Source: an uncultured Gammaproteobacteria bacterium
Lineage (GTDB): Bacteria > Pseudomonadota > Gammaproteobacteria > CAISUE01
DNA length: 64,000 nucleotides
Direction: 5' to 3'
Assembly: GCA_964471475.1 (NCBI GenBank)
Contig: CAYYFQ010000001.1
Coordinates: forward strand, 2,019-66,018
In this document: one piece after another, positions 12,667 to 51,132 of the stretch
How the letters are laid out: each line of letters begins with the position of its first letter
How positions within the stretch are numbered: position 1 is the first letter of the stretch
Notes under the pieces: model-generated
Databases searched by the model: none
What the model was told of the DNA's origin: nothing
The model's input: the letters and a program-made list of their open reading frames with translations, nothing else
Made by a program: the position numbers and the translations under genes

Positions 12667-13203
12667 ATGAAAACTTTTAAATCACTTGCTATATTTGCTC
12701 TTTTTACGACTCTTCCTTGCTTAAGCTTTGCCACTTCTTTGGATACAACTTTCAGCCAACCTGAAATTACCCGAATAGATATTGCTCCTAGCGAGCAAAG
12801 CTTAAACGAACTTCCCACAGGTTCACTCGTAAAAGTGGGGGATGATTATTATCATGCGGCAAGCCCAGAAGCCATCACCTCTTATACACAAATAATCAAT
12901 GACTATCATGGAAACATCAAGGGGATTACTCCTGCTATCATAAGACAAGGCAAAACAGGACGCGAAGTTTTTAAAGATACTAACGCGATGCAAGAGAAAA
13001 AAATTATTTTCCCAACGCTCCAAGATTTACATAGATTTGATCATGACAGTAACACTAATCCTGCGTTACGTGATTATGTAGAATCTACCGGCCGCGGCAA
13101 TTATAAATTTGTGATGACTCCTCATCACCCCGTTGATTCCAAGAAGATTTATCGATTCGACCGCCTGCATATGCCAGAACCATCTCAGGTTTCCAGAAAA
13201 TAA
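12667..13203 (+). CDS. hypothetical secreted protein (ORFan)
   Basis: Starting at MKTFKSLAIFALFTTLPCLSFATS gives a clean Sec signal peptide. No recognisable domain. The 3' end overlaps the convergent 949-aa ORF by 19 nt. Confidence 0.5.
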   Translation: MKTFKSLAIFALFTTLPCLSFATSLDTTFSQPEITRIDIAPSEQSLNELPTGSLVKVGDDYYHAASPEAITSYTQIINDYHGNIKGITPAIIRQGKTGREVFKDTNAMQEKKIIFPTLQDLHRFDHDSNTNPALRDYVESTGRGNYKFVMTPHHPVDSKKIYRFDRLHMPEPSQVSRK

Positions 13204-16411: not shown

Positions 16412-17830
16412 ATGGAAAACAGAAGCAACCTAAAAAAAGGGGTTAGTTATATGGTAAATAAGATAGCAACAGGTGAGAAACGCCTATTATCTGCAGAATT
16501 GAAGATAACCTTGTGGTCACTTTTTGACCTTTTGACTCGACTTGAAAGATTACAAGATAAATCCATCCGCTTGAAATCTGAAGCCAATCTATCTAAGAAA
16601 ATTGAAGGCAAACGCGAAATAGCAGTAGATTTGACTCGTGAAGCACAACAATTAGAGAGCCTCAATATCGCTCTACACGACCCTCTATCATTGGCTGATC
16701 TTCCCCTCTCTGATGACAAAATACTACAACAAATTTATCGCGCTCAATTTATTCTTTATCAGCATTATTTAAAAGAGTTCCTTCTCATTTTAATTAAAGA
16801 TGAGACGGGCGAAAGTACAGAGATCGAAAAGAAGTTACTTGAAAAAAACATACTGCCTACATTAGTTAATCGATTAGAGATGGGGGATTTGCAAGAAATA
16901 CTTCTTGCAATTGATCCGCCTGGAATTGAGCGGCTTGATAAGATATTCTTACCACAAGACTCCCTCTCAACTCATTCACACTTTTTAAACAACATACAAA
17001 ATGCACGCAAGGCTTCTACCTTTTCTTCCATGCAACCTCCATTGTCCAGCCCATCAAGCATTTCAAGTGGTAGTCGCCGTGAGTTTTTCCCCATATTTTC
17101 CCTAAATGCTAGCAAAAAAAACTCTCGCACTCCTATTAAATTAGCAGACCTCCAAACTACGCCGGCTTTAATTTTATCTTTTAATCCATCGCGTTTAAAA
17201 GAAAAATACGATATTCGCAAAGCATTAGCCACGATGAGTGCAAAGGAAGCACAAAGAATGTTAACGCAGATCGCACAATCCATTGCTGATGCTAATGAGC
17301 CAAAGCAAATAGACGCTTTTTTAGCATTTTGTAACCCAAATTCAACATGGGTATGGGCACGATTCGGTTTTCTTTATAACCCTTTCGCAGCGCTTCAGAG
17401 AGAAGATGACAAAAGTAATCTCCATATATTTTTAAATAAACTCGACATCAGAATTCTAGTGCCTCTGTTAATCATGCGACCTACCTTATTAACAAGTCTT
17501 GTCACTGAAACAAAGCAAGTATCCCTGCCCCACAAGAGAGGCAATTCACAGAAACAACTTGATACCTCGATGGCAATGACGGTCGCAACTGCCCTGTTCG
17601 CCCGCATCACAGACGCTCATTCAGGCTTCACCAGTCCAACAATAGAAGAACTACAAGAGCTTGCCACGAACCCTGAAAAGCTTAAAGAAAAATTACGCGC
17701 TTACGATAGCAACTTGTTACCAACAGGCTCTCTATACAAATCCAACTCTTCTCAAGCAAAAACATCGGTACCTTCCGAAATAGATTCAGGAGAACCAGCG
17801 CGGAAAGGTCCAGGAGCGTTCACCCAATAA
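16412..17830 (+). CDS. hypothetical protein (ORFan, effector-like)
   Basis: 472-aa ORF with no signal peptide, a coiled-coil-like N-terminus and Ser/Pro-rich patches. An alternative start is at 16451 (MVNK). The 3' end overlaps the convergent permease gene by 45 nt. Confidence 0.55.
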   Translation: MENRSNLKKGVSYMVNKIATGEKRLLSAELKITLWSLFDLLTRLERLQDKSIRLKSEANLSKKIEGKREIAVDLTREAQQLESLNIALHDPLSLADLPLSDDKILQQIYRAQFILYQHYLKEFLLILIKDETGESTEIEKKLLEKNILPTLVNRLEMGDLQEILLAIDPPGIERLDKIFLPQDSLSTHSHFLNNIQNARKASTFSSMQPPLSSPSSISSGSRREFFPIFSLNASKKNSRTPIKLADLQTTPALILSFNPSRLKEKYDIRKALATMSAKEAQRMLTQIAQSIADANEPKQIDAFLAFCNPNSTWVWARFGFLYNPFAALQREDDKSNLHIFLNKLDIRILVPLLIMRPTLLTSLVTETKQVSLPHKRGNSQKQLDTSMAMTVATALFARITDAHSGFTSPTIEELQELATNPEKLKEKLRAYDSNLLPTGSLYKSNSSQAKTSVPSEIDSGEPARKGPGAFTQ

Positions 17831-40135: not shown

Positions 40136-40270
40136 TATAGCCTTTAACATTTAGCTTCATACGGTGTTGCAAGTTCATTCGCCTTCGGTCATGTACGTCT
40201 ATGTACACTCCCTCGACTCATTCACTTGCGCCTTGTCTGAAACTAAATCTTAAAGGCTGTAACTACAGCT
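40131..40270. mobile_element. MITE-like element, family F
   Basis: Arms of about 50 bp are inverted repeats at roughly 75% identity: agctgtatagcctttaacatttagcttcatac... versus ...gtctgaaactaaatcttaaaggctgtaactacagct. It overlaps the GNAT stop codon at 40263-40265. Confidence 0.65.
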
Positions 40271-40919
40271 CTGCAAGCGTTGGAGAAGGCTCGCCGCCAG
40301 TCTCAACCTTGGCAGGAAGAGGACTCGAATTGGATCCGGATGCAGCAGATACACCTCCTGCGTGAGGCGCCTCCGAATTAAACATGGTGTCAACTGTTTT
40401 CAGCGTAGATACTTGCACAGTACGCTCTTCTAATGCTGGGCTCTTCAAATCTAGTTTAAAACCAATATGCGAATCGGTAAAGCCAATTTTTTTATAAAAA
40501 TGTTGTGCTTCTGGTCTTAATTTATTAGTGGTAAGTTGCACAAATCGACACTCTCTTTCTTTTGCTCTCTGAATTGCCCACTGAACAAGTTCTACACCTA
40601 ATCCTTGCCCTCTGCATTCGTTTTTAATACGAACCCCCTCTAATTGTGCTCGCGTAGCTCCTTGAAAAGTTAGCGTCGTCATATAAGTGATTTGTAAAGT
40701 TCCGATAACTTCATGTTTATCATTTTCCATGACTATTAATTCGTTATTTCTATCATCTACTATTTTGTCAAATGCCTTGTAATAACACTCATCAACCTTA
40801 AGAGTATCCGAATAAGTTTCTCTTGTGCTTCCCAGCACATCATCAGAAAGCAATTGAACAATAACGGGTATATCATGACGTGTCGCTAACCTAACATTAT
40901 ATCCTTCTAACATAAACAC
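40263..40919 (-). CDS. GNAT family N-acetyltransferase with a ~60-aa low-complexity C-terminal tail
   Basis: Acetyl-CoA-binding motif RGQGLGVELVQWAIQRA plus VQLTTNK...FYKKIGF. The tail after about residue 158 is Ser/Ala/Gly/Pro-rich. Confidence 0.8.
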   Translation of the reverse strand: MFMLEGYNVRLATRHDIPVIVQLLSDDVLGSTRETYSDTLKVDECYYKAFDKIVDDRNNELIVMENDKHEVIGTLQITYMTTLTFQGATRAQLEGVRIKNECRGQGLGVELVQWAIQRAKERECRFVQLTTNKLRPEAQHFYKKIGFTDSHIGFKLDLKSPALEERTVQVSTLKTVDTMFNSEAPHAGGVSAASGSNSSPLPAKVETGGEPSPTLAEL

Positions 40920-40942
40920 CTCACTGAATAATAAAAATTTAA

Positions 40943-41932
40943 TTAGGCAACCTTAGCTTTTATGTACCCTTCTGCAAATTTTTTCTTGTCCGCATCGGTT
41001 TGTTTATAAAGCAGCCCCCTTTGTAACCACCGGCTCATATTTTTCATTGATCCGCGGCGGCCATGCATTACCCCCCCAACATCTTTTACTCCCCAGCCAT
41101 TATTAAAAATAAGCATATCTCCTTTTTGTAACTTGATCGAAGTATAATCATCAGGATGTAATTGCAAGTGCTCAAATTTAGCAAATAACATATCTAAAAC
41201 TTTTTGTGCACGTTCAGTAACTGCCTCTAATCGAGCTTTATTTTCTACAAGTCGGGTTCTAAAACAATTTTCCGATTCTTTAGTAATTAAAGAAAATGCC
41301 GTTTTATTTATACAACCAGAAGCTGGCCCTGTATGAATTATAAACTCGGGGCATCTCATGATATCGATAGCTTCTTGTGGCAAGGAGTACACTAGCTTAT
41401 TCAAGTCAAGAAAAGTGGTAAATGCATTATCATCACCTTCTAAACACAATAAAGTTTGGAAGTCAGGTGGAGTTAAGTGATATGCAAGCTCTGTATGAAA
41501 TGTAAGGGGTTCTGCACCAAAGCTCGACTGCTCTTTTTCTCGCCCCACAACAGGCGTCACATCATGAATTAATCTCCCTCCTCGTTCATTCGGGTTCGTA
41601 TAAAGCTTAGTACCAAGTAGTTGAGCCATCCCCAATATCACATTTTCGCTAACCGAAGTTTTAACTTTAATTCGATCGTCGATATTATTTCCGGGAGGAA
41701 CTATAGAATCTATAGGCATCCCAGAAAGATGAATAATAGAGGGTACAGCGTTTTCTCTCATTGATCTTAACGTGGTATGCACTTCTGTCGGTAAAAACTC
41801 GCTTAACTTCTCCGCCATTAGTTGCATAAGGTATTCTGGCTGCGTATATGGATCAAATGAGAATTCATTTACGAATTGATTAAACTCTTTTGCAAAATTT
41901 GGGATTGTGTAACTTATAACTTCTGGATGCAT
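40943..41932 (-). CDS. clavaminate-synthase-like Fe(II)/2-oxoglutarate-dependent oxygenase (amino-acid hydroxylase-like)
   Basis: 329-aa ORF with an HxE motif (LTFHTELAYH), a distal His (GVMHGRRG) and a downstream Arg (SRWLQR), the arrangement seen in the VioC/AsnO/TauD-type fold. The assignment rests on motif pattern only. Confidence 0.6.
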   Translation of the reverse strand: MHPEVISYTIPNFAKEFNQFVNEFSFDPYTQPEYLMQLMAEKLSEFLPTEVHTTLRSMRENAVPSIIHLSGMPIDSIVPPGNNIDDRIKVKTSVSENVILGMAQLLGTKLYTNPNERGGRLIHDVTPVVGREKEQSSFGAEPLTFHTELAYHLTPPDFQTLLCLEGDDNAFTTFLDLNKLVYSLPQEAIDIMRCPEFIIHTGPASGCINKTAFSLITKESENCFRTRLVENKARLEAVTERAQKVLDMLFAKFEHLQLHPDDYTSIKLQKGDMLIFNNGWGVKDVGGVMHGRRGSMKNMSRWLQRGLLYKQTDADKKKFAEGYIKAKVA

Positions 41933-42015
41933 AAAATACTCCTCAGTTTAAATATAGCAAGTTCATCTCTTCGTTTTTTCTATTATTTTTTAAACAAGAA
42001 ATTTTAGAATTTTAA

Positions 42016-42048
42016 GGCGCCTCATAAGTTAAAAAATTTGTGAGGCGC
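42016..42048 (-). terminator. candidate terminator hairpin after acnA
   Basis: ggcgcctca...(16 nt)...tgaggcgc forms an 8-9 bp GC-rich stem starting 23 nt after the acnA stop. The U-tract is poor. Confidence 0.4.
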
Positions 42049-42070
42049 ATATTTAATTATTAGCGAATTA

Positions 42071-44779
42071 TCAACACGCCGTAGTATTCGCGCCAATAAT
42101 TTGTCGCAACACATACGGTAAAATACCACCTTGATTAAAATAATCGATTTCAATTTCGGTGTCTAACCGCAAAATTAATGGGATTTTGCGGAGGATTTGA
42201 CCTTCGTCGCTTTTTATTACCAAAGTCACTTCCTTATTAACATCAAGTTTTTCCAAGCCCAAAATATCAAATATTTCACTTCCTGTTAGTTTTAATGACT
42301 CGACACTTTCACCTTCTTTAAATTGACATGGCAAAACTCCCATACCAATTAAATTGCTTCGGTGTATTCTTTCAAAACTCTTAGCAACAACTGCTTTCAC
42401 TCCTAAAAGCTGAGTACCTTTTGCAGCCCAGTCTCTAGAACTTCCGGTACCATATTCTTCACCAGCAAAAATAATAGTGGGAATATTATTTTTTTGATAA
42501 AGCATTGCTGCATCGTAAATGCTCATCACTTCATTGTTATATTTGCAAAGCGTGTATCCACCTTCAATATCAGGAACCATTCTATTTTTTATCCGAACGT
42601 TTGAGAAAGTTCCGCGCATCATAACTTCATGATGACCTCGACGAGCACCAAAACTATTAAAATCTACAGGGGATATTCCATGATGCTGTAAATATTCACC
42701 AGCAGGTGATTTTGGGCTAATACTACCCGCAGGGCTGATATGGTCTGTTGTAATAGAATCCCCTAAAATTGCTAATGCTCGTGCATTTAAAATATTATCC
42801 ACTTTTTCTGGGTGCATTGAAAAGCCATCAAAAAATGGTGGTTCTGCTACATAAGTGGAATCACCATCCCATTGATATATTGCCAAGTCAGTAGAGGGGA
42901 TTTTTTCCCAAAGAATATTATTTTTATTCAAGTTACCATATAATTCTTTGTAAGTTTTGCTATCTTTTGCATAAAGAAGCGCATCTTCAATTTCTTTGGA
43001 AGTTGGCCATATATCTTTCAAAAATACAGGATTACCTTCCGTATCAGTACCTAACGGATCTTTGTCCATGTTAATTCTCACCGTACCTGCTAGCGCAAAT
43101 GCAACCACAAGTGGTGGACTCATTAAGAAATTAGCACGAATATTAGAGTGAATACGAGCTTCAAAATTCCGATTCCCAGAAAGAACTGCGGATACAATCA
43201 TTTTATTTTTTGTAACCGTATGCTCAATAGCTTCATCTAAATCCCCAACATTACCAATGCATGTTGCGCATCCATAACCTGCGACATCGAAACCAATTTT
43301 TTCTAAAGAATCAAGAAGACCTGCTTTTTTAAGATATTCAGTAACCACTCTGGAACCGGGGGTTAAGGAAGTTTTTATATAAGGCTTCACTGTTAGACCT
43401 TTTTCACAGGCCTTTTTTGCGAGAATACCGGCTGCAACAAGCACACTAGGATTAGAAGTATTCGTGCAAGAAGTTATACCTGCAATTAAGACATCACCAT
43501 GTGCTACTTCAGTTTCTTGACCAACTACTGGTGCTTTGGCATTAATTTTTTCTTCATCTAAGCTGTAGCCATTGTTTGCAACAGACTCTCTTAAAAGCTT
43601 TTCAAAAGTTTCTTTTAATTCAGGCAAATTGATTCTATCTTGAGGGCGTTTTGGGCCTGAAACACTAGGCAATACTTTATCAAGATCGAGTTCAATTACT
43701 TGTGTATAATCGCATTCACCATCTTGCGGTATTCCAAAAAGCTTTTGCGCTTCAAAATAGTTTTTAATTTTCTCCACTTCGTCTTTTGTTCTACCTGTTT
43801 GCTCATAATAAGCGATTGTCATTTCATCTACTGGAAAAAACCCCATTGTTGCACCGTAATCAGGGGCCATGTTGGCAATTGTGGCTCTATCTTGTGCTGT
43901 CAAATGTTTTGCACCTTCACCAAAATACTCCACGATTTTCCCAACAACCTTAGCCTTTCTTAATATTTCAGTTAAAGTTAAAACCAAATCGGTTGCCGTA
44001 ACACCCTCTCTTAACTTGCCACGCAAATGAAAACCAACTACATCAGGAGTTAAGAAATAAATAGGTTGGCCAAGCATACCCGCTTCTGCTTCAATACCAC
44101 CAACACCCCATCCTACAACACCTATACCATTAACCATAGTGGTATGAGAGTCAGTACCTACCACCGTATCTGGATAATAAACGTTATTTTTGTCTGCAAA
44201 AACTCCTTTGGAAAGATATTCAAGATTTACTTGGTGAACAATTCCCACTCCGGGAGGAACAACTTCTAATTTATTAAATGCCGAAGCACCCCATTTCATA
44301 AACTTATAACGTTCTTGATTTCTACTGAATTCTAACTCCATATTTAACGCCAATGCGTTGTGTTTTCTTGTATAGTTAGTTTGCACTGAGTGGTCAATGA
44401 CTAAACTCACAGGCACTAAGGGTTCAATAACTTCGGGATTAATACCCATACCTTTGACTGTTCCTCGCATCGCAGCAAGATCAGCTAACAATGGCACTCC
44501 TGTATAGTCCTGCAAAACGATTCTTGCAACAACAAAAGGAATTTCGTTCACTCTTTTACCTTTTGCTTCCCAGTTGGCGAGGTGATGAATGTGTTCTTTT
44601 GTGATTTTTTTTCCATCATAGTTGCGAAGCGCTGATTCAAGAATTATTCTTAAACTCACCGGCAATCTAGAAATATTCCCTAAACCATTTTTTTCAAGCA
44701 GTGGCAATGAAAAGAACTTACCCATTTCTCCAGAACTAGTGGCTTTAAATTCACTCATACAATTAAACGCATCATTCAT
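42071..44779 (-). CDS. acnA: aconitate hydratase A
   Basis: 902-aa ORF with Fe-S cluster ligand regions ([25 protein letters not shown]) and a C-terminal swivel domain. AGGA lies 10 nt upstream of the ATG, and the start is only 16 nt after the stop of the upstream adenylase gene. Confidence 0.95.
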
Positions 44780-44795
44780 AAAAAATATTCCTATG

Positions 44796-46337
44796 TTAAG
44801 TTAAATAATTTATTAATGCCTTTCTATCTATCTTGCCATTGGCATTTAATGGCATTTTTTCTAAAAAAAGAATTTGGTTTGGAACCATGTAGCTAGGAAC
44901 CAAATTTCGTAGAGATTCTAAAATTTGGGTAGAACTTGTTTCTTCCCCGGTTAAAAAAGCTACTAAACCCGCGCATGTGCCATCAATTATTGGCCACCCC
45001 AACACTACCGCATCAATTATGCCAGGGGTTTTCCTAATTATCCATTCAATTTCTGCAAGCTCTACTCTGTAGCCATTTACTTTAATTTGCTGATCCGCTC
45101 TTCCCAAGTAAATAAGCTGATTATTTTTTGATAGTTTCACCAGATCGCCAGTTCTATAGTAAATTTCACCATCTTTTTCAATATGAGCAAATAGCGTTTT
45201 TTCTTTATCATCAAGATAACCTTGAAAATTTTGTGGGCCCGCAACACACAGCTCTCCAGAAAAGCCATCTTGCGTTACTTCTTTCAAGTTTTCATCTAAA
45301 ATTTTAAATTTCAAACCAGCATAAATTTCACCTATTGAAACCACTCCATTTTCGTTATTAATATGATTTAATGAATCATAGGTATAACTTGAGCAAGCTA
45401 TTGTTAATTCAGTAGGCCCATAAAGATTTTGTATAGTAGAATTAGGAGCTGCAGCTTGCCAAGTTTCTACTGCCTCAACACTCAAGGGTTCCCCGCAAAA
45501 CAAGCTCAGCCTTAAAGTAGGCATTGAATTTTCGCGTAATATATTTTTTTTACGTGCAAAATTTATTATGGATGGTACAGAAAACCAAATGGTAATTTGA
45601 TTTTCTGACACAAAAACAGATGGCGAAAGAAGCTCAATTGGTTGTGGCACACACAGAGTGGCTCCATGGCAAAACGCCATAAAAATATCAAACATTGATA
45701 AATCAAAAGTCTGATCAAAAGTTTGTGATAATTTATCGCTAGCACTAACCTTGTATTTTTCTTGGTTATAGTGAATAAAATGATTTAAGTTTCCATGAGA
45801 AATCTGGACACCTTTAGGAATGCCTGTGCTACCAGATGTAAATAAAATATATGCAGTGTCATCATTGTTTATTTTTGGAGACCCTACGTGTATATGAAAA
45901 GTATCTAGATCATTAATACAATAAATGTTTTTATATTCATTTAGTAAATCCGAATCTGAATCAACTATAATCAGCGGGTTATAAGATAATTCCTTTAAAA
46001 CGCCTCTTAATGCATGAATACTTTGTGAGTCCACTACAATCACATCTAGTTTAGCATGTTCAATTATTGACACCGTTCTTGCGACGGGAAAATTCTTGTT
46101 TAGTGGTACAAAAGTGCTTCCTAAAAGCATCGAGGCCAACGTTCCAGCATAGCTAGTTTTGCTCCTAAAGCTAAATAGACCAATGCGTTTAGGAAAGTGA
46201 CAAAGGCTTTTTATCCCTTTTGCAAATTTGAGGACTTCACTGTTTAATTCTTTATATGTCCAGGAGTTCTCACCAATCGTTAAAGCAAGAGCCTCTGAAT
46301 TATCTTCAACAACACTTAAGAATTTTTCTATTAACAT
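44796..46337 (-). CDS. stand-alone adenylation enzyme (ANL superfamily, DltA-like amino-acid/acid--carrier ligase)
   Basis: 513-aa ORF with core motifs [47 protein letters not shown] and [13 protein letters not shown]. It has no fused carrier or condensation domain. Confidence 0.85.
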
Positions 46338-46339
46338 AT

Positions 46340-47767
46340 TTAATTGCTCCCGCTCACTTTCGCAATATTATGTCCACTAGCGGCTTGCCCATCGCTTTTC
46401 TGTAAGTATCTAAATACAATAAATGATACGAATGTAATTCCTCCAATAGCAAAGAACGAATTATGGAGTGGCATTACATCCCCCATCGTGAGATGATTAT
46501 TAAAACCAACAAATATTTTAATTACTAAAGCACTTACAGCAACACCAAAGCACATTGATAATTGCTGTATGGCACTTGCTATACTAGTTCCTTTGCTTAC
46601 ATTGCTATCTGTTAAATCGACATAACTTAAAATATTCATACAACTAAACTGCAAAGATGTGACCAGGCCATTTACAAATACTAATAAAAGTATAATGCTG
46701 TAAGGGGTGATTTTAGTGACAAAAGCAAAAGACGCCATTGAGACCCCCACCAACATTGGATTGATAATTAAAATTTTTCTAAAGCCATATAGCTTTAAAA
46801 GTTTTTTAACAAAAAATTTCATCAGTAACATAGCAATTGCTAAAGGAAAAATTAACAACCCAGAGTAAAGAGGAGATAAACCAAAACCTATTTGAAAAAG
46901 CAAAGGAAGTAAGAAAGGAATTCCTCCTATCCCTAATCTGCTCCACAAGCTACCTAAGACAGTAATTCTAAAAGTTCTAATCTTAAATACCTTAAGGTCA
47001 AAAACAGGATTTTTTGCGGTTTGATAATACCAAAAATATAGCACCAAGCAAAGTAAAGAAGAAGAAAGAATCATAAAAATAACATTGACTGACAATAGCC
47101 TTTCGCCTATAGAATCAAACCCAAATGATAATCCAGCTAATCCCACGCCAAATAAAATAAACCCTGGAACATCAAATGGTATAACATGCTCTGCTTTATA
47201 ATCTTTTACATATTTTAAAGTGAGCAACGCTCCTAATAATCCAAATGGAATGTTAACAAAAAATACCCAACGCCAAGAAGAAAATGTGGTAATAGCACCA
47301 CCTACTACAGGGCCAAGAGCAGGGCCTATTAAAGAAGGTATAGTTGCATAATTTGTGACCCTAACCAAGTCCGATTTTGGAAAAGCTTTTAATAGAATTA
47401 ACCTACCAACAGGCATCATTAGCGCCCCGCCAAGTCCTTGCAAAATTCTGGATATAATTAGTTCTGTTAGGTTGTTTGACATCCCACAAAAGATAGAACT
47501 GAGCGTAAAAAGTAAAAGAGCCAAGGAGAACACTCTCTTTGTACCAAACTTATCGGCCATCCAACCACTAATAGGAATGAATACCGCTAGACTAAGTAAA
47601 TAGCTTGTTAAAGCAACTTTCAAACTAATAGCACTCACTTGTAAGCTTATGGCTATTTTAGGGATAGCTGTACTTACGATCGTGACATCTAATGTTTCCA
47701 TAAATAAAGCAATAGCAATTACCCAGGGAATAATAATTTTAGAAAGATCTTTCAATGTTTTTTTCAT
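46340..47767 (-). CDS. MFS transporter, DHA2 (EmrB/QacA-like, ~14 TM) family
   Basis: 475-aa ORF with about 14 hydrophobic segments and the motifs LDVTIVSTAIP and GWMADKFGTKRV. Confidence 0.85.
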   Translation of the reverse strand: MKKTLKDLSKIIIPWVIAIALFMETLDVTIVSTAIPKIAISLQVSAISLKVALTSYLLSLAVFIPISGWMADKFGTKRVFSLALLLFTLSSIFCGMSNNLTELIISRILQGLGGALMMPVGRLILLKAFPKSDLVRVTNYATIPSLIGPALGPVVGGAITTFSSWRWVFFVNIPFGLLGALLTLKYVKDYKAEHVIPFDVPGFILFGVGLAGLSFGFDSIGERLLSVNVIFMILSSSLLCLVLYFWYYQTAKNPVFDLKVFKIRTFRITVLGSLWSRLGIGGIPFLLPLLFQIGFGLSPLYSGLLIFPLAIAMLLMKFFVKKLLKLYGFRKILIINPMLVGVSMASFAFVTKITPYSIILLLVFVNGLVTSLQFSCMNILSYVDLTDSNVSKGTSIASAIQQLSMCFGVAVSALVIKIFVGFNNHLTMGDVMPLHNSFFAIGGITFVSFIVFRYLQKSDGQAASGHNIAKVSGSN

Positions 47768-47775
47768 CGTAACTA

Positions 47776-48912
47776 TTAAATATATTTACTAAGCTCTTTT
47801 CTAAGTAGTTCCGCAATAATCAATGGCTCGTTTTCTTGTAAACTTATAGGATTAACGACTAAATGATTCAGCTCTTTAAAATATTGCATAAAAACTCTGG
47901 GAGAACCTTTTAACATAATTTTGGGAATATCTGCTGCACTTGGTCCATGCCATTCTTTTGTAAATATTATAACCGCCGTAGGAACATGATGATTGACTTC
48001 ATCATGAACAATTTCAACTTTTACGCCTGGAATATTGCTTAATAGTTCCACGGTTGGCTGAAGTCTTGAGCGAAACTCTTCCAGCATTTTTTCTTCATCA
48101 CTATCAATGTATATTTTTAAAGCGGTATACAAACCTACCATATCTTCTTTTGAAACTTTATGTGGTCGTCCAATTGCGTGGTTTGGACTAGCGTTTGCCA
48201 AAGCAGCTTCCACAAGGTCTTTTCTTCCATAAAGTAGCCCGGTTGCCTGTGGTGCATGTATTAATTTCCCCCCACTCACCACAACTAAATCTGCTCCTTC
48301 TTCAATAAATCGGCGCAAGTTTGTTTTAGGTGGTAACATTGCGGCTGCATCAACAATAACCGGAAGTTTATGCTTATGGGCAATATTAACAACTTGAGGC
48401 AAGGTTAAACCAGCCGTGGAAACACGTGGGCCAAGTAAATAAGTAACCGCAACAGTTTTTTCTGTAATTGCTCCCTCCAGTTCTTCTGGTAAACACTCAT
48501 TAAAATCGCCAATATCTACAAATTTTGCACCCGTAAAAGTATACATATGGCTATAAGACCCACGATGTATCCTTTGAATAATAAGTTCATTTTTCATTCC
48601 GGTAGAATCTGGTAATCTCCTTACTTTTGCAACGTCAGCTCCTGTCATACAAGCCGCAATGGATAAAACAACACCACTTGCGGCCCCGCTAGTGACCATA
48701 CCAGCTTCGGCCCCAGTGACCTTTGCAATGTATTCTCCAATTTTTCTATTTAATTCTGCCATGCTTACAAAAGACTTAGAAGCTTCAGCAATTGCTTCAA
48801 GCACACGAGGATCCATTCGGGAACCACCATACGCACTTTTCGTGCCTCCTGCATTAATAACCGGCACCACACCGATTTCTTCATAAATTTTATTTGCTAA
48901 GCAACTAGACAC
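47776..48912 (-). CDS. SelA/DgaE-family PLP-dependent enzyme
   Basis: 378-aa ORF with INAGGT...GGS at the N-terminus and VSGGKLIHAPQATGLLYG, which resembles the SelA PLP-lysine motif (SGDKLLGGPQAG). The size fits the short DgaE-like subfamily. Confidence 0.7.
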   Translation of the reverse strand: MSSCLANKIYEEIGVVPVINAGGTKSAYGGSRMDPRVLEAIAEASKSFVSMAELNRKIGEYIAKVTGAEAGMVTSGAASGVVLSIAACMTGADVAKVRRLPDSTGMKNELIIQRIHRGSYSHMYTFTGAKFVDIGDFNECLPEELEGAITEKTVAVTYLLGPRVSTAGLTLPQVVNIAHKHKLPVIVDAAAMLPPKTNLRRFIEEGADLVVVSGGKLIHAPQATGLLYGRKDLVEAALANASPNHAIGRPHKVSKEDMVGLYTALKIYIDSDEEKMLEEFRSRLQPTVELLSNIPGVKVEIVHDEVNHHVPTAVIIFTKEWHGPSAADIPKIMLKGSPRVFMQYFKELNHLVVNPISLQENEPLIIAELLRKELSKYI

Positions 48913-48939
48913 TATATGACTCCTTTACAGAAAGATAAA

Positions 48940-50328
48940 TTATCGTTCATCAAGCAATACGTATTTTGCTTCTTTTTTACCTACATAATTTAATCGAGGG
49001 CGAATTAAAATATTGTTAGACTCTTGCTCTAGTATTTGCGCAGTCCATCCTGCCATCCTACTCATAATAAAGACAGCAATAAACATATCTTGGGGAATAC
49101 CCAAGAAGTGATAAATTACTGCGGCATAAAAATCCACATTTACATTTAAGCCATATTTTGCATGAAGCGCCATTTCAATATTGATAGCTTCAAGAATATT
49201 AAAGTATCTGGTATCACCAGATTTTACGCTAATTTGGTAAGCTAACTCTCTCATGCCTTTTGCTCTGGGGTCTTCAGTTCTATAGACACGATGCCCATAA
49301 CCGTAAATAGGGCTACCATTTTTTATTTTTGTTTGAATGTAATCGGTCGTATTTTCAGGCAAATCAATTTCGTTTAACATTTCAATTACTTTTGAAAGCG
49401 CGCCGCCATGCAAATCACCGCTGAAAGTACAAATAGCTGCAATTATAGCAGAATAAAAGTTAGCTTCTGCTCCAGTTGCCACTCTAGCAACAAAAGAAGA
49501 AGCATTAGAGCCATGATCAGCGTGCATCATCATAACTTTTTCAAGTATTTTAATATCTTCTTCCGCAGGTAACTTTTGATGAATTAAAGATAAAAAGTTT
49601 TCTGCCAAAGAAGCATTCTGGTTTATCGAGGGAATTATCTGTTTTTCTCTGGAAAGTTTTTGATACGCAATAACCAGAGGTAGTTTTGCAATTAAGCTCA
49701 ATCCAGTCTCTAAAGAGCTCTTCTCGGGGGCCTCAAGCAATGAGAACATACTCAGAAAACTCTTTAACAAATCTACATATTCTAATTGATTAAACTGAGC
49801 AATGAAGTCAATGGTTTTGTTACTTAATACTTTTTTTTTGGACAAACAAGTTTTAAAATTTATTAATTCATTTTTATTTGGCAGCTCCCCAAAGATCAGC
49901 AAATGGCAAACTTCTTCGTAGGTAGAAAACCGTACTATCTCCTCAATTGCATAACCTCGGTAAAACAGTTTTCCTTGGTCACCATCTATACTTGTTATAG
50001 TGGTATTATCAAAAAAAACACCATTTAAGCCTCGATGAATACTTTTTGTCACTTTTTGCTCATTAGCTGTAGAAGTATTCGAAGAATTTATAAATTTTTC
50101 GATCGCATTAATTGAAGTAAGTTTTAAGATCTCTTTTTCATTGATATGAATTCCGTAAATTTGTTCCAGTTTCATCATCAAGTTCACATGCCTAAATGAA
50201 TCCCACTCTGATATAGACTGGTAAGATGTCTCTCCACTTAATAGTTTTTTATCAACCCCAAGATGTTCAGAAATAAAATCATAAACATTGATTGCATCCG
50301 CTTTTTTCATTGGTTTCACCGCCCTCAT
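48940..50328 (-). CDS. carrier-protein domain fused to a citrate-synthase-family enzyme
   Basis: The N-terminal ~80 aa read VYDFISEHLGV...SISEWDSFRHVNLMMKLEQIYGI...AIEKFI (4'-phosphopantetheine carrier pattern). The remaining ~370 aa are citrate-synthase-like with MHADHGSNAS, GYGHRVYRTEDPRA and NVDFY. The start is ambiguous (Met at 50328 with AGAGGA 9 nt upstream, or Met at 50310), and the track ORF extends to 50445. Confidence 0.8.
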   Translation of the reverse strand: MRAVKPMKKADAINVYDFISEHLGVDKKLLSGETSYQSISEWDSFRHVNLMMKLEQIYGIHINEKEILKLTSINAIEKFINSSNTSTANEQKVTKSIHRGLNGVFFDNTTITSIDGDQGKLFYRGYAIEEIVRFSTYEEVCHLLIFGELPNKNELINFKTCLSKKKVLSNKTIDFIAQFNQLEYVDLLKSFLSMFSLLEAPEKSSLETGLSLIAKLPLVIAYQKLSREKQIIPSINQNASLAENFLSLIHQKLPAEEDIKILEKVMMMHADHGSNASSFVARVATGAEANFYSAIIAAICTFSGDLHGGALSKVIEMLNEIDLPENTTDYIQTKIKNGSPIYGYGHRVYRTEDPRAKGMRELAYQISVKSGDTRYFNILEAINIEMALHAKYGLNVNVDFYAAVIYHFLGIPQDMFIAVFIMSRMAGWTAQILEQESNNILIRPRLNYVGKKEAKYVLLDER

Positions 50329-50642
50329 TTTACGCATTCCTCTAACATTCACTCTCAACTCTCTAATTTTGCTTTTTTCTGCACAGTAAGACTTTTGTAA
50401 AACCGCCGACCACCTCTCTCTGGAAGCCCTAAAGCATACACACAAAAAGAGATAACGTACTTACATACAGTTATGTTTTGGTGTGGAAAAAACGCTTATC
50501 CAAGCGGGTGGAGCCTTAACCCTCAGTAGTTTGCGTCATCGAGTTGACACTTCGATTTAAACCTTGATTAGCTCATATGCAACGCTACTTTTTCGCAATG
50601 AATGTTACGAATGCAAAAAGCAATAATTTTTTTACTTTTAAA

Positions 50643-50716: not shown

Positions 50717-50953
50717 TTAAAACCACAATGTAGCGCAAGACCCAGAAAAAATTTTGTCTGTTGAAACATCAGCAGCATCAGAATCTACGGGTTGAGGCTG
50801 CATCGAAGAAACATCAGCAGTACCAGAATCTACGGGTTGGTGCTGAACAGAAGTAGCGGAATTAGATGATGGACATATTTCTTTCATTACGCTCGATACT
50901 GGTTTTTTTTGGGGGGGAGGGGGTAATTCATCAAAAAGCATACTGCGCTCCAA
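50717..50953 (-). CDS. small hypothetical protein with an internal 15-aa tandem repeat (doubtful gene)
   Basis: 78-aa ORF with PPPPQKKP encoded by a C5-T-C7-A8 tract, plus a 45-bp tandem duplication at 50763-50848 ((Q)PVDSxxADVS, two copies). No homology recognised. Confidence 0.3.
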   Translation of the reverse strand: MERSMLFDELPPPPQKKPVSSVMKEICPSSNSATSVQHQPVDSGTADVSSMQPQPVDSDAADVSTDKIFSGSCATLWF

Positions 50954-50968
50954 AATATTATTTTTTTA

Positions 50969-51132
50969 TCTAGGGCGTGTCCCTAAAGTATCGTTTGAAG
51001 CAAAAAAGAAGATAATCGAGGCAGTTTTAACGATCATCGGCGAATATTGGACATATTTAACGAGGAGGATCGTTAAAATTGAGCGATTTCGCTTCTTTTG
51101 CAGCCAAAAGATACTTTAGGGATACGCCCTAC
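50969..51132. mobile_element. MITE-like element, family C, copy 2 (intact termini)
   Basis: Terminal inverted repeats tagggcgtgtccctaaagtatc (50971-50992) and gatactttagggatacgcccta (about 51110-51131) match at 21 of 22 positions. The interior folds back on itself (ttttaacgatc/gatcgttaaaa; gaagc.aaa/tttcgcttc). Confidence 0.8.

What the first reader, a model, noticed from the sequence alone, without database searches (positions are those of the whole stretch)
42071..50445. Orphan five-gene operon: carrier::citrate-synthase fusion, SelA-family PLP enzyme, DHA2 exporter, DltA-like adenylase and aconitase
Seen in the sequence: five same-strand ORFs are separated by only 27, 8, 2 and 16 nt and are followed by a hairpin at 42016-42048, so they look like one transcription unit. 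The adenylase has all the ANL core motifs ([47 protein letters not shown]) but no fused carrier or condensation domain. A carrier-like domain (EWDSFRHVNLMMKLEQIYGI) sits at the N-terminus of a citrate-synthase-family protein that keeps MHADHG, GYGHRVY and NVDFY. The third gene carries the SelA-type PLP-lysine motif VSGGKLIHAPQATG. The remaining genes are a ~14-TM DHA2 MFS and a full-length AcnA. Established knowledge: citrate-synthase-like plus aconitase pairs are reused outside the TCA cycle for 2-oxoacid-type chain extension, as in the phosphinothricin and FR-900098 pathways. Stand-alone adenylases load dedicated carriers, as DltA loads DltC. Inference: a carrier-tethered substrate is coupled to TCA-like C-C bond formation and isomerisation, and the product is exported. 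It could be a citrate/aconitate-derived siderophore-like or antimetabolite-like compound. No PEP mutase, IucA/IucC-type NIS synthetase, NRPS condensation domain or PKS is present, so the set does not fit any pathway class I know.
Basis: partly seen in the sequence, partly recalled or inferred. Interest (0 to 1): 0.85.

Follow-up and report, generated by a model that had tools for sequence, protein, structure and literature searches.

The report
Carrier-tethered glycine citrate-synthase operon
This five-gene operon is real and recurs in many bacteria, and it most likely loads glycine onto a carrier domain fused to a citrate synthase, joins it to oxaloacetate, reworks the product and exports it, which is citrate-synthase chemistry that I found described nowhere.

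Summary
There are five co-directional genes with gaps of 27, 8, 2 and 16 nt, every quoted motif is present, and a hairpin follows the aconitase gene. "Orphan" is wrong. The carrier::citrate-synthase fusion forms a single clade of about 75 sequence clusters. An orthologous adenylase lies within 10 kb in 41 of 42 genome loci, and an aconitase in 31 of 42. The same five-gene order recurs complete in three other contigs and truncated in two. Natural A–ACP–CS and ACP–CS–A single-chain fusions show that the adenylase serves this carrier. The adenylase pocket code, DLFFLCLIAK, is identical in 43 of 44 orthologues. It matches the glycine ligase AlmE at 7 of 10 positions, including the two residues shown by mutagenesis to matter in AlmE. 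All catalytic and oxaloacetate-binding residues of the citrate synthase are invariant. The N-terminal domain folds as an ACP, with the serine at the start of helix II. Best reading: glycyl-S-ACP plus oxaloacetate gives an aminocitrate-type acid, which is then processed by the aconitase and a DgaE-related PLP enzyme and exported. The product, and the order of the last steps, are unknown. Ten full-text literature searches found no characterised homologue, and MIBiG could not be run. Verdict: a new variant of a known kind.

The parts
48940..50328 (-). Gene 1: ACP::citrate-synthase fusion, 462 aa from the ATG at 50328. The longest ORF starts at the TTG at 50445.
   Evidence: The protein is 100% identical to database protein P0001 (462 aa).
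50059..50295 (-). Acyl-carrier domain, about residues 12-90. The phosphopantetheine serine, Ser44, is the codon at 50197-50199 within the W-D-S motif.
   Evidence: The AlphaFold2 model of residues 1-100 has pLDDT 78.6 and four helices, with helix II starting at Ser44. The top 50 Foldseek PDB matches are all ACPs, with TM 0.72-0.87. Trp42 and Ser44 are invariant in 47 fusions. NCBIfam ACP models hit at E=7e-9 but below their cut-offs.
48943..50040 (-). Citrate-synthase domain, residues 97-462, of the type II (small) kind.
   Evidence: PF00285 scores 347 bits. The best PDB matches are small citrate synthases. The equivalents of pig H238, N242, H274, H320, R329, D375, F397, R401 and R421 are invariant in the family.
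47776..48912 (-). Gene 2: DgaE/SelA-related fold-type I PLP enzyme. The PLP lysine lies in VSGGK.
   Evidence: It is 62-70% identical to the PLP genes that follow ACP-CS in L087-L090 and L094.
46340..47767 (-). Gene 3: DHA2-type MFS transporter, a presumed exporter.
   Evidence: TIGR00711 scores 251 bits, above its cut-off of 230. There are about 13-14 hydrophobic peaks. Orthologues sit in the same slot in L089, L090 and L094 at 57-59% identity, and in L008 at 54%.
44796..46337 (-). Gene 4: stand-alone NRPS-type adenylation enzyme. The predicted substrate is glycine, with D-alanine less likely.
   Evidence: The pocket code is DLFFLCLIAK.
42071..44779 (-). Gene 5: AcnA-type aconitase. The three Fe-S cysteines (SCTN, CATC) are present.
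   Evidence: An aconitase lies within the fetched 10-kb flanks in 31 of 42 genome loci.
42017..42048 (.). Hairpin after the aconitase stop codon. It is a likely terminator or attenuator of the five-gene unit.
   Evidence: A hairpin of unrelated sequence followed by a T-run sits at the same place in L094.
40943..41932 (-). Possible lineage-specific accessory gene: a TauD/clavaminate-synthase-like Fe(II)/2-oxoglutarate oxygenase. Its best, sub-threshold hits are amino-acid beta-hydroxylases.
   Evidence: Only a decayed remnant is found after the aconitase in L094. It is absent from the other related loci.
40263..40919 (-). Possible accessory gene: a GNAT N-acetyltransferase, a candidate for self-resistance.
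   Evidence: It is 60% identical to the GNAT downstream of the same operon in L094. It is absent from the other related loci.

Best explanation
The operon encodes a split, NRPS-like "A - T - citrate synthase" system.

1. The stand-alone adenylase activates glycine with ATP. It loads the glycine as a thioester onto the phosphopantetheine arm of the ACP domain fused to the citrate synthase.
2. The citrate-synthase domain uses its unchanged His/His/Asp machinery and oxaloacetate site. It deprotonates the glycyl alpha-carbon, adds it to oxaloacetate and hydrolyses the thioester. This releases a 2-aminocitrate-type amino-tricarboxylic acid and regenerates the holo-carrier.
3. The AcnA-type aconitase dehydrates or isomerises this substituted citrate, as aconitases do with citrate and 2-methylcitrate.
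4. The DgaE-related PLP enzyme acts on the alpha-amino-acid end, by elimination, deamination or decarboxylation.
5. The DHA2 transporter exports the product, most likely an antimetabolite-like small acid.

Shown: gene and domain content; conservation; the coupling of A, ACP and CS; a pocket shaped for a small amino acid; intact CS catalytic residues.

Inferred: glycine as the substrate; C-C bond formation at its alpha-carbon; oxaloacetate as the partner; the order and chemistry of the aconitase and PLP steps; export; bioactivity.
For: 1. Coupling of A, ACP and CS.
- An adenylase 37-48% identical to the window's lies within 10 kb of ACP-CS in 41 of 42 genome loci.
- Single-chain A-ACP-CS proteins (P0382, P0391, P0482) and ACP-CS-A proteins (P0384, P0399) exist. 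They carry the same pocket motifs.

2. The carrier is real.
- The model of the N-terminal domain is an ACP fold, and all top-50 PDB matches are ACPs. Helix II starts at the invariant Ser44.

3. Substrate.
- Asp235 and Lys517 are present, so the substrate is an alpha-amino acid.
- The 10-residue code DLFFLCLIAK is identical in 43 of 44 orthologues that are only 41-48% identical overall.
- In the pocket region the best PDB matches are IdnL7 (Gly, L-Ala, L-Ser), AlmE (Gly) and VinM, at 102-108 bits. DltA scores about 52 bits.
- The code matches AlmE at 7 of 10 positions. These include Leu236 and Cys301, the residues that mutagenesis tied to glycine selectivity in AlmE (PMC11253843).

4. CS chemistry.
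- The equivalents of pig H274, H320 and D375, and of the oxaloacetate ligands H238, N242, R329, R401 and R421, are invariant across the family.
- The fusion clade separates from plain citrate synthases by a single split in a neighbour-joining tree.
- It has its own residues, Phe302 and Leu306, flanking the catalytic His.
- Two arginines that are invariant in plain type II enzymes are no longer conserved. One lies in the segment that binds the CoA phosphates in pig citrate synthase. This fits loss of CoA-nucleotide contacts.

5. Dedicated aconitase.
- An aconitase is present in 31 of 42 genome loci. PrpF, the partner of AcnD in 2-methylcitrate dehydration, lies beside the operon in two relatives.

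6. The five-gene set is conserved in the same order.
- It is complete in the contig of P0064, in L089 and in L094. It is truncated in L090 and L087.

7. Signs of a mobile, foreign cassette.
- G+C is 36.3% against 40.6% for the rest of the window.
- The CS is type II in a gammaproteobacterium.
- Integrases or IS elements flank the relatives.
Against: - No biochemical data exist for any family member, and I have no product.
- The AlmE-like Leu/Cys pair is also found in DltA, which activates D-Ala. D-alanine is therefore not excluded.
- A DgaE-type ammonia-lyase acting directly on 2-aminocitrate would give oxalosuccinate. That would leave the aconitase with no role, so the order and chemistry of the last two steps do not yet form a closed scheme.
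- The PLP gene is missing from most loci that have the core trio. Its role is therefore accessory and may have nothing to do with the amino-tricarboxylate.
- Pfam's PP-binding model does not reach threshold on the window protein.
- The single-chain fusions are gene predictions on metagenome contigs.
- The reading of the relaxed arginines as lost CoA contacts rests on motif position, not on a structure.
Confidence: 0.55

Rival explanations
1. Glycine-to-2-oxoglutarate shunt in primary or catabolic metabolism. Glycyl-ACP plus oxaloacetate gives aminocitrate. Dehydration and deamination give oxalosuccinate, which loses CO2 to give 2-oxoglutarate. This would feed glycine carbon into the TCA cycle rather than make a secreted compound.
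For: The chemistry is coherent for CS plus either the PLP lyase or an AcnD-like dehydration. DgaE-type enzymes are catabolic. A 55%-identical PLP homologue in Dehalococcoidia sits in a catabolic-looking cluster with enolase-superfamily enzymes and amidases.
Against: - The route spends ATP to AMP for a step with no obvious need for it.
- The PLP enzyme and the aconitase would be redundant.
- A DHA2 efflux-type transporter sits inside the operon.
- In most other genomes the same core is embedded with ATP-grasp ligases, DUF6025, a luciferase-like oxygenase and MFS pumps, which looks biosynthetic.
- Relatives lie on mobile, IS-flanked islands.
Confidence: 0.15
2. CoA-independent citrate or aconitate production for export, for example as an iron chelator. 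The adenylase loads acetate or another simple acid onto the ACP. The CS domain makes citrate, the aconitase makes aconitate or isocitrate, and the MFS pump exports it.
For: The CS catalytic and oxaloacetate residues are those of ordinary citrate synthases. The aconitase passes the AcnA equivalog cut-off. There is a precedent for ATP-dependent acetylation of a carrier in citrate lyase (CitC and CitD; established knowledge).
Against: - The adenylase has the alpha-amino-binding Asp235 and the AlmE-type Leu/Cys pocket. It scores best against amino-acid A domains.
- This reading gives the PLP enzyme nothing to do.
- There is no Fur-box-like site (best match 12 of 19).
- The neighbouring genes I scanned include no siderophore receptor or uptake genes.
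Confidence: 0.1
3. The adenylase is a VinM/IdnL7-type amide ligase. It adds Gly or Ala to an amine on an intermediate already bound to the ACP, as a protecting group, rather than loading the thiol.
For: IdnL7 and VinM are the best full-length single-domain PDB matches, at 301 and 288 bits. They also lead in the pocket region.
Against: - No second loading enzyme is present in the minimal five-gene set or in the A-ACP-CS single-chain proteins.
- At the three positions that the review ties to IdnL7/VinM specificity (Cys217, Ala285, Thr318), the window enzyme has AlmE's residues instead.
Confidence: 0.07
4. Chance neighbourhood. Housekeeping citrate synthase and aconitase genes happen to lie next to unrelated genes.
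For: The aconitase meets the AcnA equivalog threshold. It is 85% identical to the L094 copy, while the other four genes are only 38-64% identical, so it has a partly separate history.
Against: - The CS carries a fused carrier and belongs to a separate clade.
- It misses the curated cut-offs of every ordinary citrate-synthase model.
- The five-gene order is conserved in several unrelated contigs, and the trio across phyla.
- The genes are separated by 2-27 nt.
Confidence: 0.03

Closest known systems
2-Methylcitrate cycle enzymes: PrpC methylcitrate synthase, and AcnD with PrpF (or PrpD) as the dehydratase
   Same: A citrate-synthase-family enzyme adds the alpha-carbon of a substituted acyl thioester to oxaloacetate. 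An AcnA/AcnD-type aconitase then processes the 2-substituted citrate. PrpF lies beside the operon in two relatives.
   Different: - The donor is tethered to a fused carrier and loaded by an NRPS-type amino-acid adenylase, not propionyl-CoA.
- I saw no PrpB lyase or PrpE.
- AcnD's curated threshold is not met, at 749 bits against 1420.
- A PLP enzyme and an efflux pump are part of the unit.
AlmE/AlmF (glycine) and DltA/DltC (D-alanine) small-amino-acid carrier ligases
   Same: A stand-alone A enzyme loads a very small amino acid onto a dedicated carrier. The window enzyme shares the Asp-Leu...Cys pocket triad, and 7 of 10 code positions with AlmE.
   Different: - The carrier is fused to a citrate synthase instead of feeding a cell-envelope acyltransferase.
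- The DltA equivalog cut-off is not met, at 289 bits against 560.
- The loaded amino acid is predicted to be a carbon nucleophile, not an acyl donor.
TCA-like steps in phosphinothricin and FR-900098 biosynthesis, and fungal alkylcitrate synthases (squalestatin, maleidrides)
   Same: Citrate-synthase-type condensation with oxaloacetate or a related acid, followed by an aconitase-type or methylcitrate-dehydratase-type step, is reused in secondary metabolism (established knowledge).
   Different: - Those systems use CoA thioesters or phosphonate analogues.
- They have no fused carrier and no dedicated adenylase.
- No PEP mutase, PKS or FAS lies next to the window operon.
Citrate lyase CitC/CitD/CitE/CitF
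   Same: Citrate chemistry is run on a protein-bound thioester. An ATP-dependent ligase charges the carrier (established knowledge).
   Different: The protein families and the prosthetic group are unrelated. That system cleaves citrate with acetate as the acyl group. The system here is predicted to build a bond with an amino acid.
DgaE, the D-glucosaminate-6-phosphate ammonia-lyase (PDB 7LC0), and SelA
   Same: The fold and the aligned PLP lysine are the same. The family eliminates a beta-hydroxyl from an alpha-amino acid. SelA does this on a tethered (tRNA-bound) aminoacyl group.
   Different: - The enzyme is about 38% identical to DgaE (my count from the alignment).
- It scores below both DgaE-family cut-offs.
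- There is no sugar-acid catabolic context.
- The substrate here is unknown.

Membership tests
Citrate synthase family (PF00285) | The Pfam domain scores above its gathering threshold. The catalytic His274, His320 and Asp375 and the oxaloacetate ligands (pig numbering) are present. | tested here: met
   The domain scores 346.9 bits against a cut-off of 27. H307, H346, D399, H272, N275, R355, R424 and R443 are invariant in the family alignment.
Ordinary citrate / 2-methylcitrate synthase (NCBIfam TIGR01800 and the equivalogs) | The whole-protein score reaches the curated cut-off. | tested here: not met
   TIGR01800 scores 360.6 bits against 421.3. Every citrate-synthase equivalog is below its cut-off. 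The domain falls in a separate clade from plain citrate synthases.
Acyl/peptidyl carrier protein (PF00550) | A four-helix carrier fold with a conserved Ser at the N-terminus of helix II, and a profile match. | tested here: met
   The fold is met: the top 50 PDB matches are all ACPs, and Ser44 starts helix II. Ser44 is invariant. The profile match is only sub-threshold on the window protein, at 35 bits against 71, with no Pfam hit. PF00550 is recorded for several homologues. Phosphopantetheinylation itself cannot be tested here.
NRPS-type amino-acid adenylation domain (ANL superfamily) | The AMP-binding core motifs, Asp235 for the alpha-amino group, and Lys517. | tested here: met
   PF00501 scores 224.5 bits and PF13193 27.5 bits. 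FDLS and NGKIDRK are present. TIGR01733 scores 308.1 bits, just under its cut-off of 317.4.
DltA (D-alanine--carrier protein ligase) equivalog | The curated score cut-off is reached, with a DltBCD context. | tested here: not met
   TIGR01734 scores 288.7 bits against 559.85. The pocket region scores about 52 bits to DltA structures against 103 bits to AlmE. There are no dltBCD genes in the neighbourhood.
Glycine-specific A domain of the AlmE type | Leu next to Asp235, and Cys at position 301, both close to the glycine alpha-carbon (mutagenesis in AlmE). | tested here: met
   The window enzyme has D235, L236 and C301. Its code DLFFLCLIAK compares with AlmE's DLHLFCLIAK, read from the alignment. 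The role of these residues comes from PMC11253843. The actual substrate is not testable here.
DgaE family PLP ammonia-lyase (TIGR01437, NF047797) | The curated score cut-off is reached, and the PLP lysine is present. | tested here: not met
   The scores are 240.4 bits against 385.3, and 211.3 bits against 600. The lysine is aligned with those of DgaE and SelA. The enzyme is related but is not a member by the curated test.
DHA2 (14-TMS) MFS efflux family (TIGR00711) | The curated cut-off is reached, with about 14 transmembrane segments. | tested here: met
   The score is 251.4 bits against 230.2. A Kyte-Doolittle scan gives about 13-14 hydrophobic peaks.
Aconitate hydratase AcnA (TIGR01341) | The curated cut-off is reached, with three Fe-S cysteines and the catalytic Ser/Arg segment. 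| tested here: met
   The score is 1282 bits against 945. SCTN, CATC and GSSRD are present in the translation. AcnD (TIGR02333) scores 749 bits against 1420, so that test is not met.
NIS siderophore, NRPS or PKS gene cluster | An IucA/IucC synthetase, a condensation domain or a ketosynthase is present. | tested here: not met
   None appears in the five proteins or in the 20 flanking proteins scanned.
Any characterised biosynthetic gene cluster (MIBiG) | A homologous cluster with a known product exists. | not testable with these tools
   antiSMASH, MIBiG and cblaster are not available. Ten full-text literature searches found nothing relevant.

The most novel reading that the evidence does not exclude
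This would be the first carrier-protein-dependent citrate synthase, an NRPS-like A-T-CS module, split here and fused in some genomes. It would use an aminoacyl thioester (glycyl-S-ACP) as the carbon nucleophile towards oxaloacetate. That would open a route to amino-tricarboxylic-acid metabolites, so far unrecognised. The route would be encoded in about 75 sequence clusters across at least six phyla, including some 30 Streptomyces and Kitasatospora species.
Probability: 0.45. Interest if true: 0.8.

Novelty: new variant of a known kind. Interest (0 to 1): 0.68.

Why it matters
- **New chemistry.** Citrate synthases are textbook CoA-dependent enzymes. A version that takes its donor from a fused carrier charged by an NRPS-type adenylase, and that uses an amino acid as the enolate partner, would be a new way of making C-C bonds in natural-product biosynthesis.
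- **A cluster type with no curated family model.** No curated NCBIfam citrate-synthase model reaches its cut-off on the fusion protein. Whether cluster-mining tools flag the cassette could not be tested here. It is conserved in many Streptomyces genomes next to ATP-grasp ligases, so it probably makes an unknown family of amino-acid or peptide antimetabolites.
- **A minimal system to test.** The window holds four enzymes and a pump, which is a compact set for reconstitution.

Tried and rejected
- **ACP-only profile for the genome scan.** The 18-sequence alignment had no stretch conserved enough to search with. A 7-sequence alignment worked. It only finds members with the motif YQSIxEWDS, so the counts are lower bounds. 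About 38 of the 80 loci returned were unrelated ACPs with no citrate synthase.
- **Locating the window's own contig.** The look-up of P0001 found nothing. The exact-match cluster look-up returned no names. The window's genome is not among the species representatives.
- **Organism.** It can only be placed as an uncultured gammaproteobacterium. The closest polynucleotide phosphorylase that carries a name is 75% identical, from a MAG.
- **Riboswitch or other RNA upstream.** There is no Rfam hit and no tRNA.
- **Fur box.** The best match is 12 of 19.
- **PrpF in the window.** None was found.
- **TauD as a conserved member.** The cyanobacterial TauD next to ACP-CS is not orthologous to the window's. 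The window's TauD and GNAT are absent from L001-L090 and recur only in L094.
- **Naive ORF clustering.** It was unreliable in high-G+C actinomycete loci. I used tblastn counts instead.
- **Literature.** Searches for DUF6025, the PDB code 8T7J, aminocitrate, alahopcin and combinations of citrate synthase with carrier, adenylation or ATP-grasp terms gave nothing relevant.
- **Alahopcin.** From memory, its 3-carboxyglutamate skeleton would fit the larger Streptomyces cluster. I could not test this and make no claim.
- **Internal terminator-like hits.** Those inside the genes on the minus strand are weak, and the total number found is not above the shuffled expectation (13 against 8.8 ± 3.5).

Full report
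**1. What is in the sequence**

Five minus-strand ORFs lie at 48940-50445, 47776-48912, 46340-47767, 44796-46337 and 42071-44779. The gaps between them are 27, 8, 2 and 16 nt.

Pfam and NCBIfam give these assignments:
- Gene 1 has a citrate-synthase domain at residues 139-484 of the longest ORF. In front of it is a stretch that hits ACP models at E=7e-9, but below their cut-offs.
- Gene 2 is a SelA/class-V-fold PLP enzyme. Its best family is DgaE-related TIGR01437, at 240 bits against a cut-off of 385.
- Gene 3 is a DHA2 MFS transporter. TIGR00711 scores 251 bits, above its cut-off of 230.
- Gene 4 is an adenylation enzyme with AMP-binding and AMP-binding_C only.
- Gene 5 is an AcnA-type aconitase. 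TIGR01341 scores 1282 bits, above its cut-off of 945.

The hairpin after the aconitase stop codon is real. It lies at 42017-42048, with an energy of -13.2 kcal/mol and a z-score of -2.45.

One correction: gene 1 most likely starts at the ATG at 50328, giving 462 aa. That is the form held in the database, and it has an AGAGGA upstream.

The window is chromosomal DNA of an uncultured gammaproteobacterium. It carries pnp, metH, fhs, ileS, ddl and xseA. The closest polynucleotide phosphorylase that carries a name is 75% identical and comes from a MAG. The operon is lower in G+C than the rest of the window, 36.3% against 40.6%. Its third-position G+C is 0.26-0.29, against 0.30-0.36 for housekeeping genes.

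**2. The operon is not an orphan**

A search with gene 1 found many proteins of 440-520 aa that share both the carrier and the citrate-synthase parts at 36-66% identity. Named sources include Numidum, Metabacillus, Ktedonosporobacter and Vibrio splendidus.

In a neighbour-joining tree of the citrate-synthase domains, one split separates all 61 fusions, plus one probably truncated protein, from 58 plain citrate synthases. A profile search of 1.84 billion representative proteins puts about 75 fusion clusters among the top 150 hits.

I scanned one genome per species with the carrier motif YQSIxEWDS. This gave 42 loci in which the motif is followed by a citrate synthase:
- 41 of them have an adenylase 37-48% identical to the window's within 10 kb. 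The exception is a 1.2-kb contig.
- 31 of them have an aconitase within 10 kb.
- They come from Streptomyces, Kitasatospora, Streptantibioticus, Dactylosporangium, Paenibacillus, Nostoc, Fischerella, Mycoavidus, Silvanigrellaceae, a Cytophagales MAG and alphaproteobacterial MAGs.

Neighbourhood tables show a larger common cluster in which the trio sits with DUF6025, one or two ATP-grasp ligases, an MFS pump, an enolase-superfamily protein, a 2-hydroxyacid dehydrogenase and a luciferase-like oxygenase.

The window carries a leaner variant, and that variant also recurs.
- The order ACP-CS, PLP, MFS, A, aconitase is complete in three other contigs. These are a 20.6-kb contig where it is preceded by PrpF, L089 and L094.
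- L090 and L087 show the same order but stop at a contig end.
- Alicyclobacillus sp. SO9 has ACP-CS, PLP, A, aconitase, DUF6025, MFS and an ATP-grasp ligase between IS elements.
- Three more PLP and ACP-CS pairs share source and contig length. They are P0016/P0133, P0058/P0136 and P0042/P0155. That they share a contig is an inference.

**3. The adenylase serves the fused carrier**

Among the representative proteins are single chains of about 950-1030 aa. Three have the order AMP-binding, ACP, CS (P0382, P0391, P0482). Two have the order ACP, CS, AMP-binding (P0384, P0399). Another is ACP-CS fused to DUF6025. Their adenylation parts carry the same pocket motifs as the window enzyme. These are Rosetta-stone fusions, and they make the split system an A-T-CS module.

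The carrier assignment needed an independent check, because Pfam's PP-binding model does not fire on the window protein. An AlphaFold2 model of residues 1-100 was built with 47 family sequences and has a mean pLDDT of 78.6. It is a four-helix bundle in which helix II begins at Ser44. Its best 50 PDB matches are all acyl carrier proteins, with target TM-scores of 0.72-0.87 and rmsd of 1.2-2.1 Å. Trp42 and Ser44 are invariant in the family.

**4. What is loaded**

Asp235 and Lys517 are present (GrsA numbering), so the substrate is an alpha-amino acid. I read the ten pocket residues from alignments to LgrA, IdnL7 and AlmE. The code is DLFFLCLIAK. It is identical in 43 of 44 orthologues and differs at one position (I to V) in the other. 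These orthologues are only 41-48% identical overall and span four phyla. All these systems therefore use the same substrate.

Over the full length, the best single-domain PDB matches are IdnL7 (301 bits), VinM (288 bits) and AlmE (269 bits). DltA scores about 170-180 bits. In the pocket region alone, IdnL7, AlmE and VinM score 102-108 bits, and DltA about 52 bits.

According to a 2024 review (PMC11253843):
- AlmE activates glycine. Its Leu248 and Cys316 lie next to the alpha-carbon, and mutagenesis confirmed their proposed steric roles.
- IdnL7 accepts Gly, L-Ala and L-Ser. It owes that to Cys217, Ala285 and Thr318.

The window enzyme matches IdnL7 at seven positions. It differs at exactly those three, where it has AlmE's Leu, Cys and Ala. 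It matches AlmE (DLHLFCLIAK) at 7 of 10 positions. Glycine is therefore the best prediction. DltA shares the Leu/Cys pair, so D-alanine is not excluded.

**5. What the citrate-synthase domain can do**

The equivalents of pig His274, His320 and Asp375, and of the oxaloacetate ligands His238, Asn242, Arg329, Phe397, Arg401 and Arg421, are invariant in the family. The mapping is by motif. The domain should therefore still bind oxaloacetate, or a very similar 2-oxo-diacid, and carry out enolisation, aldol addition and thioester hydrolysis.

The fusion clade has its own fixed residues around the catalytic His. It reads FSGxLHGGA where the plain enzymes of this sample read LSGPAHGGA.

Two arginines that are 100% conserved in the plain enzymes lie 11 residues before the second catalytic His and 8 before the catalytic Asp. 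In the fusions they are replaced by neutral or acidic residues in most sequences. The second lies in the segment that holds Lys366 and Lys368, the CoA-phosphate ligands of pig citrate synthase. This fits a donor that lacks the nucleotide part of CoA. I could not check it on a structure.

**6. The aconitase, the PLP enzyme and the pump**

The aconitase has its three cluster cysteines and passes the AcnA cut-off. It fails the AcnD cut-off. Two relatives have PrpF next to the operon. PrpF works with AcnD on 2-methylcitrate, which is the closest known case of an aconitase handling a 2-substituted citrate. The window has no PrpF.

The PLP enzyme aligns over its whole length with DgaE (7LC0) and with an uncharacterised relative (8T7J). 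Its lysine aligns with theirs and with SelA's. It is the best conserved of the five proteins, at 62-70% identity between loci in which the ACP-CS proteins are only 38-41% identical. It is absent from most loci that have the trio, so it is a tailoring enzyme, not part of the bond-forming core. A 55%-identical homologue in Dehalococcoidia sits with enolase-superfamily proteins and amidases.

A DgaE-type reaction on 2-aminocitrate, which is a beta-hydroxy-alpha-amino acid, would give oxalosuccinate and make the aconitase pointless. The real order is therefore probably aconitase first, with the PLP enzyme then acting on the rearranged or dehydrated amino acid. This is inference only.

The pump is a DHA2 transporter with orthologues in the same slot in L089, L090 and L094.

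**7. Edges of the unit**

Upstream there is no recognisable regulator, riboswitch or Fur box.

Downstream, beyond the hairpin, lie a TauD/clavaminate-synthase-like oxygenase and a GNAT acetyltransferase. The oxygenase gives weak hits to amino-acid beta-hydroxylases. The acetyltransferase gives weak hits to antimetabolite-resistance acetyltransferases such as ArsN1 and PhnO. They are missing from most related loci. In L094, however, the aconitase (85% identical) is followed by a decayed remnant of the same oxygenase and by a GNAT that is 60% identical. L094 also has a hairpin of unrelated sequence plus a T-run at the same intergenic position. I therefore treat the five genes as the transcription unit, and the oxygenase and GNAT pair as a possible sublineage-specific accessory, with the GNAT as a candidate for self-protection.

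**8. Comparison with known systems, and verdict**

The system works like the first steps of the methylcitrate cycle, with the donor supplied in the manner of AlmE/AlmF or DltA/DltC. By the curated tests it is not a member of the ordinary citrate or methylcitrate synthase, DltA, DgaE or AcnD families. It contains no NRPS condensation, PKS, NIS or PEP-mutase component.

Ten full-text searches found no description of an ACP-linked citrate synthase, of DUF6025, or of a matching cluster. MIBiG and antiSMASH could not be run.

I rate it a real, conserved and uncharacterised biosynthetic cassette, and a new variant of known enzyme kinds. The A-T-CS logic is well supported, the glycine prediction moderately well supported, and the product unknown.

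Noticed in passing
window 50971-51131: A 161-nt nested palindromic element lies in the divergent intergenic region upstream of the operon. Its outer arms are 27 nt and 93% complementary, and its inner arms are 35 nt and 71% complementary. There is only one copy in the window. It could be a MITE-like or REP-like element.
   Followed up: partly
window 50717-50941 (- strand): An unannotated 74-aa ORF with a GGAG ribosome-binding site lies about 390 nt upstream of gene 1. It contains a 45-nt tandem repeat that encodes QPVDS..ADVS twice. Its function is unknown.
   Followed up: no
L094:10910-14674 compared with window 40263-44779: The relationship is mosaic. The L094 aconitase is 85% identical to the window's, its TauD remnant 70-74% and its GNAT 60-64%. 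The ACP-CS, A, MFS and PLP genes of the same locus are only 38-64% identical. This suggests recombination or a cassette swap within the cluster.
   Followed up: partly
L005:10001-11986, L006 and L019 (cyanobacterial loci): Cyanobacterial family members carry an extra N-terminal APS-kinase/AAA_33-like domain in front of ACP-CS. They have no aconitase. Their neighbours include a TauD oxygenase, plus a fumarate-reductase-like flavoprotein and a ferredoxin in L005 and L006.
   Followed up: no
P0385 (916 aa): This is a single-chain ACP-CS-DUF6025 fusion. It implies that DUF6025 acts directly on the citrate-synthase product or on the carrier-bound intermediate in the larger cluster type.
   Followed up: no
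L001, L087, L089 and L090, upstream of ACP-CS: A Vut_1 (YhhQ-like) transporter gene and an XRE-type HTH regulator recur immediately upstream of the cassette. In L001 and L087 the regulator also carries a Peptidase_S24 domain. Integrases or IS elements lie nearby in several of these loci. The window lacks this pair.
   Followed up: no
L090:2423-16009: Two cassette types sit side by side. The first is a truncated CS with DUF6025, an enolase-superfamily protein, a 2-hydroxyacid dehydrogenase and a luciferase-like oxygenase. The second is ACP-CS, PLP, MFS and A, followed by the start of an aconitase gene cut off at the contig end.
   Followed up: no
window 13185-16034 (-) and 16412-17830 (+): Two large ORFs, of 949 and 472 aa, have no Pfam domain at E<=1e-5.
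   Followed up: no
L091-L093 (Dehalococcoidia and marine MAGs): A PLP homologue 55% identical to gene 2 is widespread. It was read on 24 contigs. It sits between enolase-superfamily genes, amidases, an amidohydrolase and an MFS transporter. This looks like a conserved, uncharacterised catabolic cluster.
   Followed up: no
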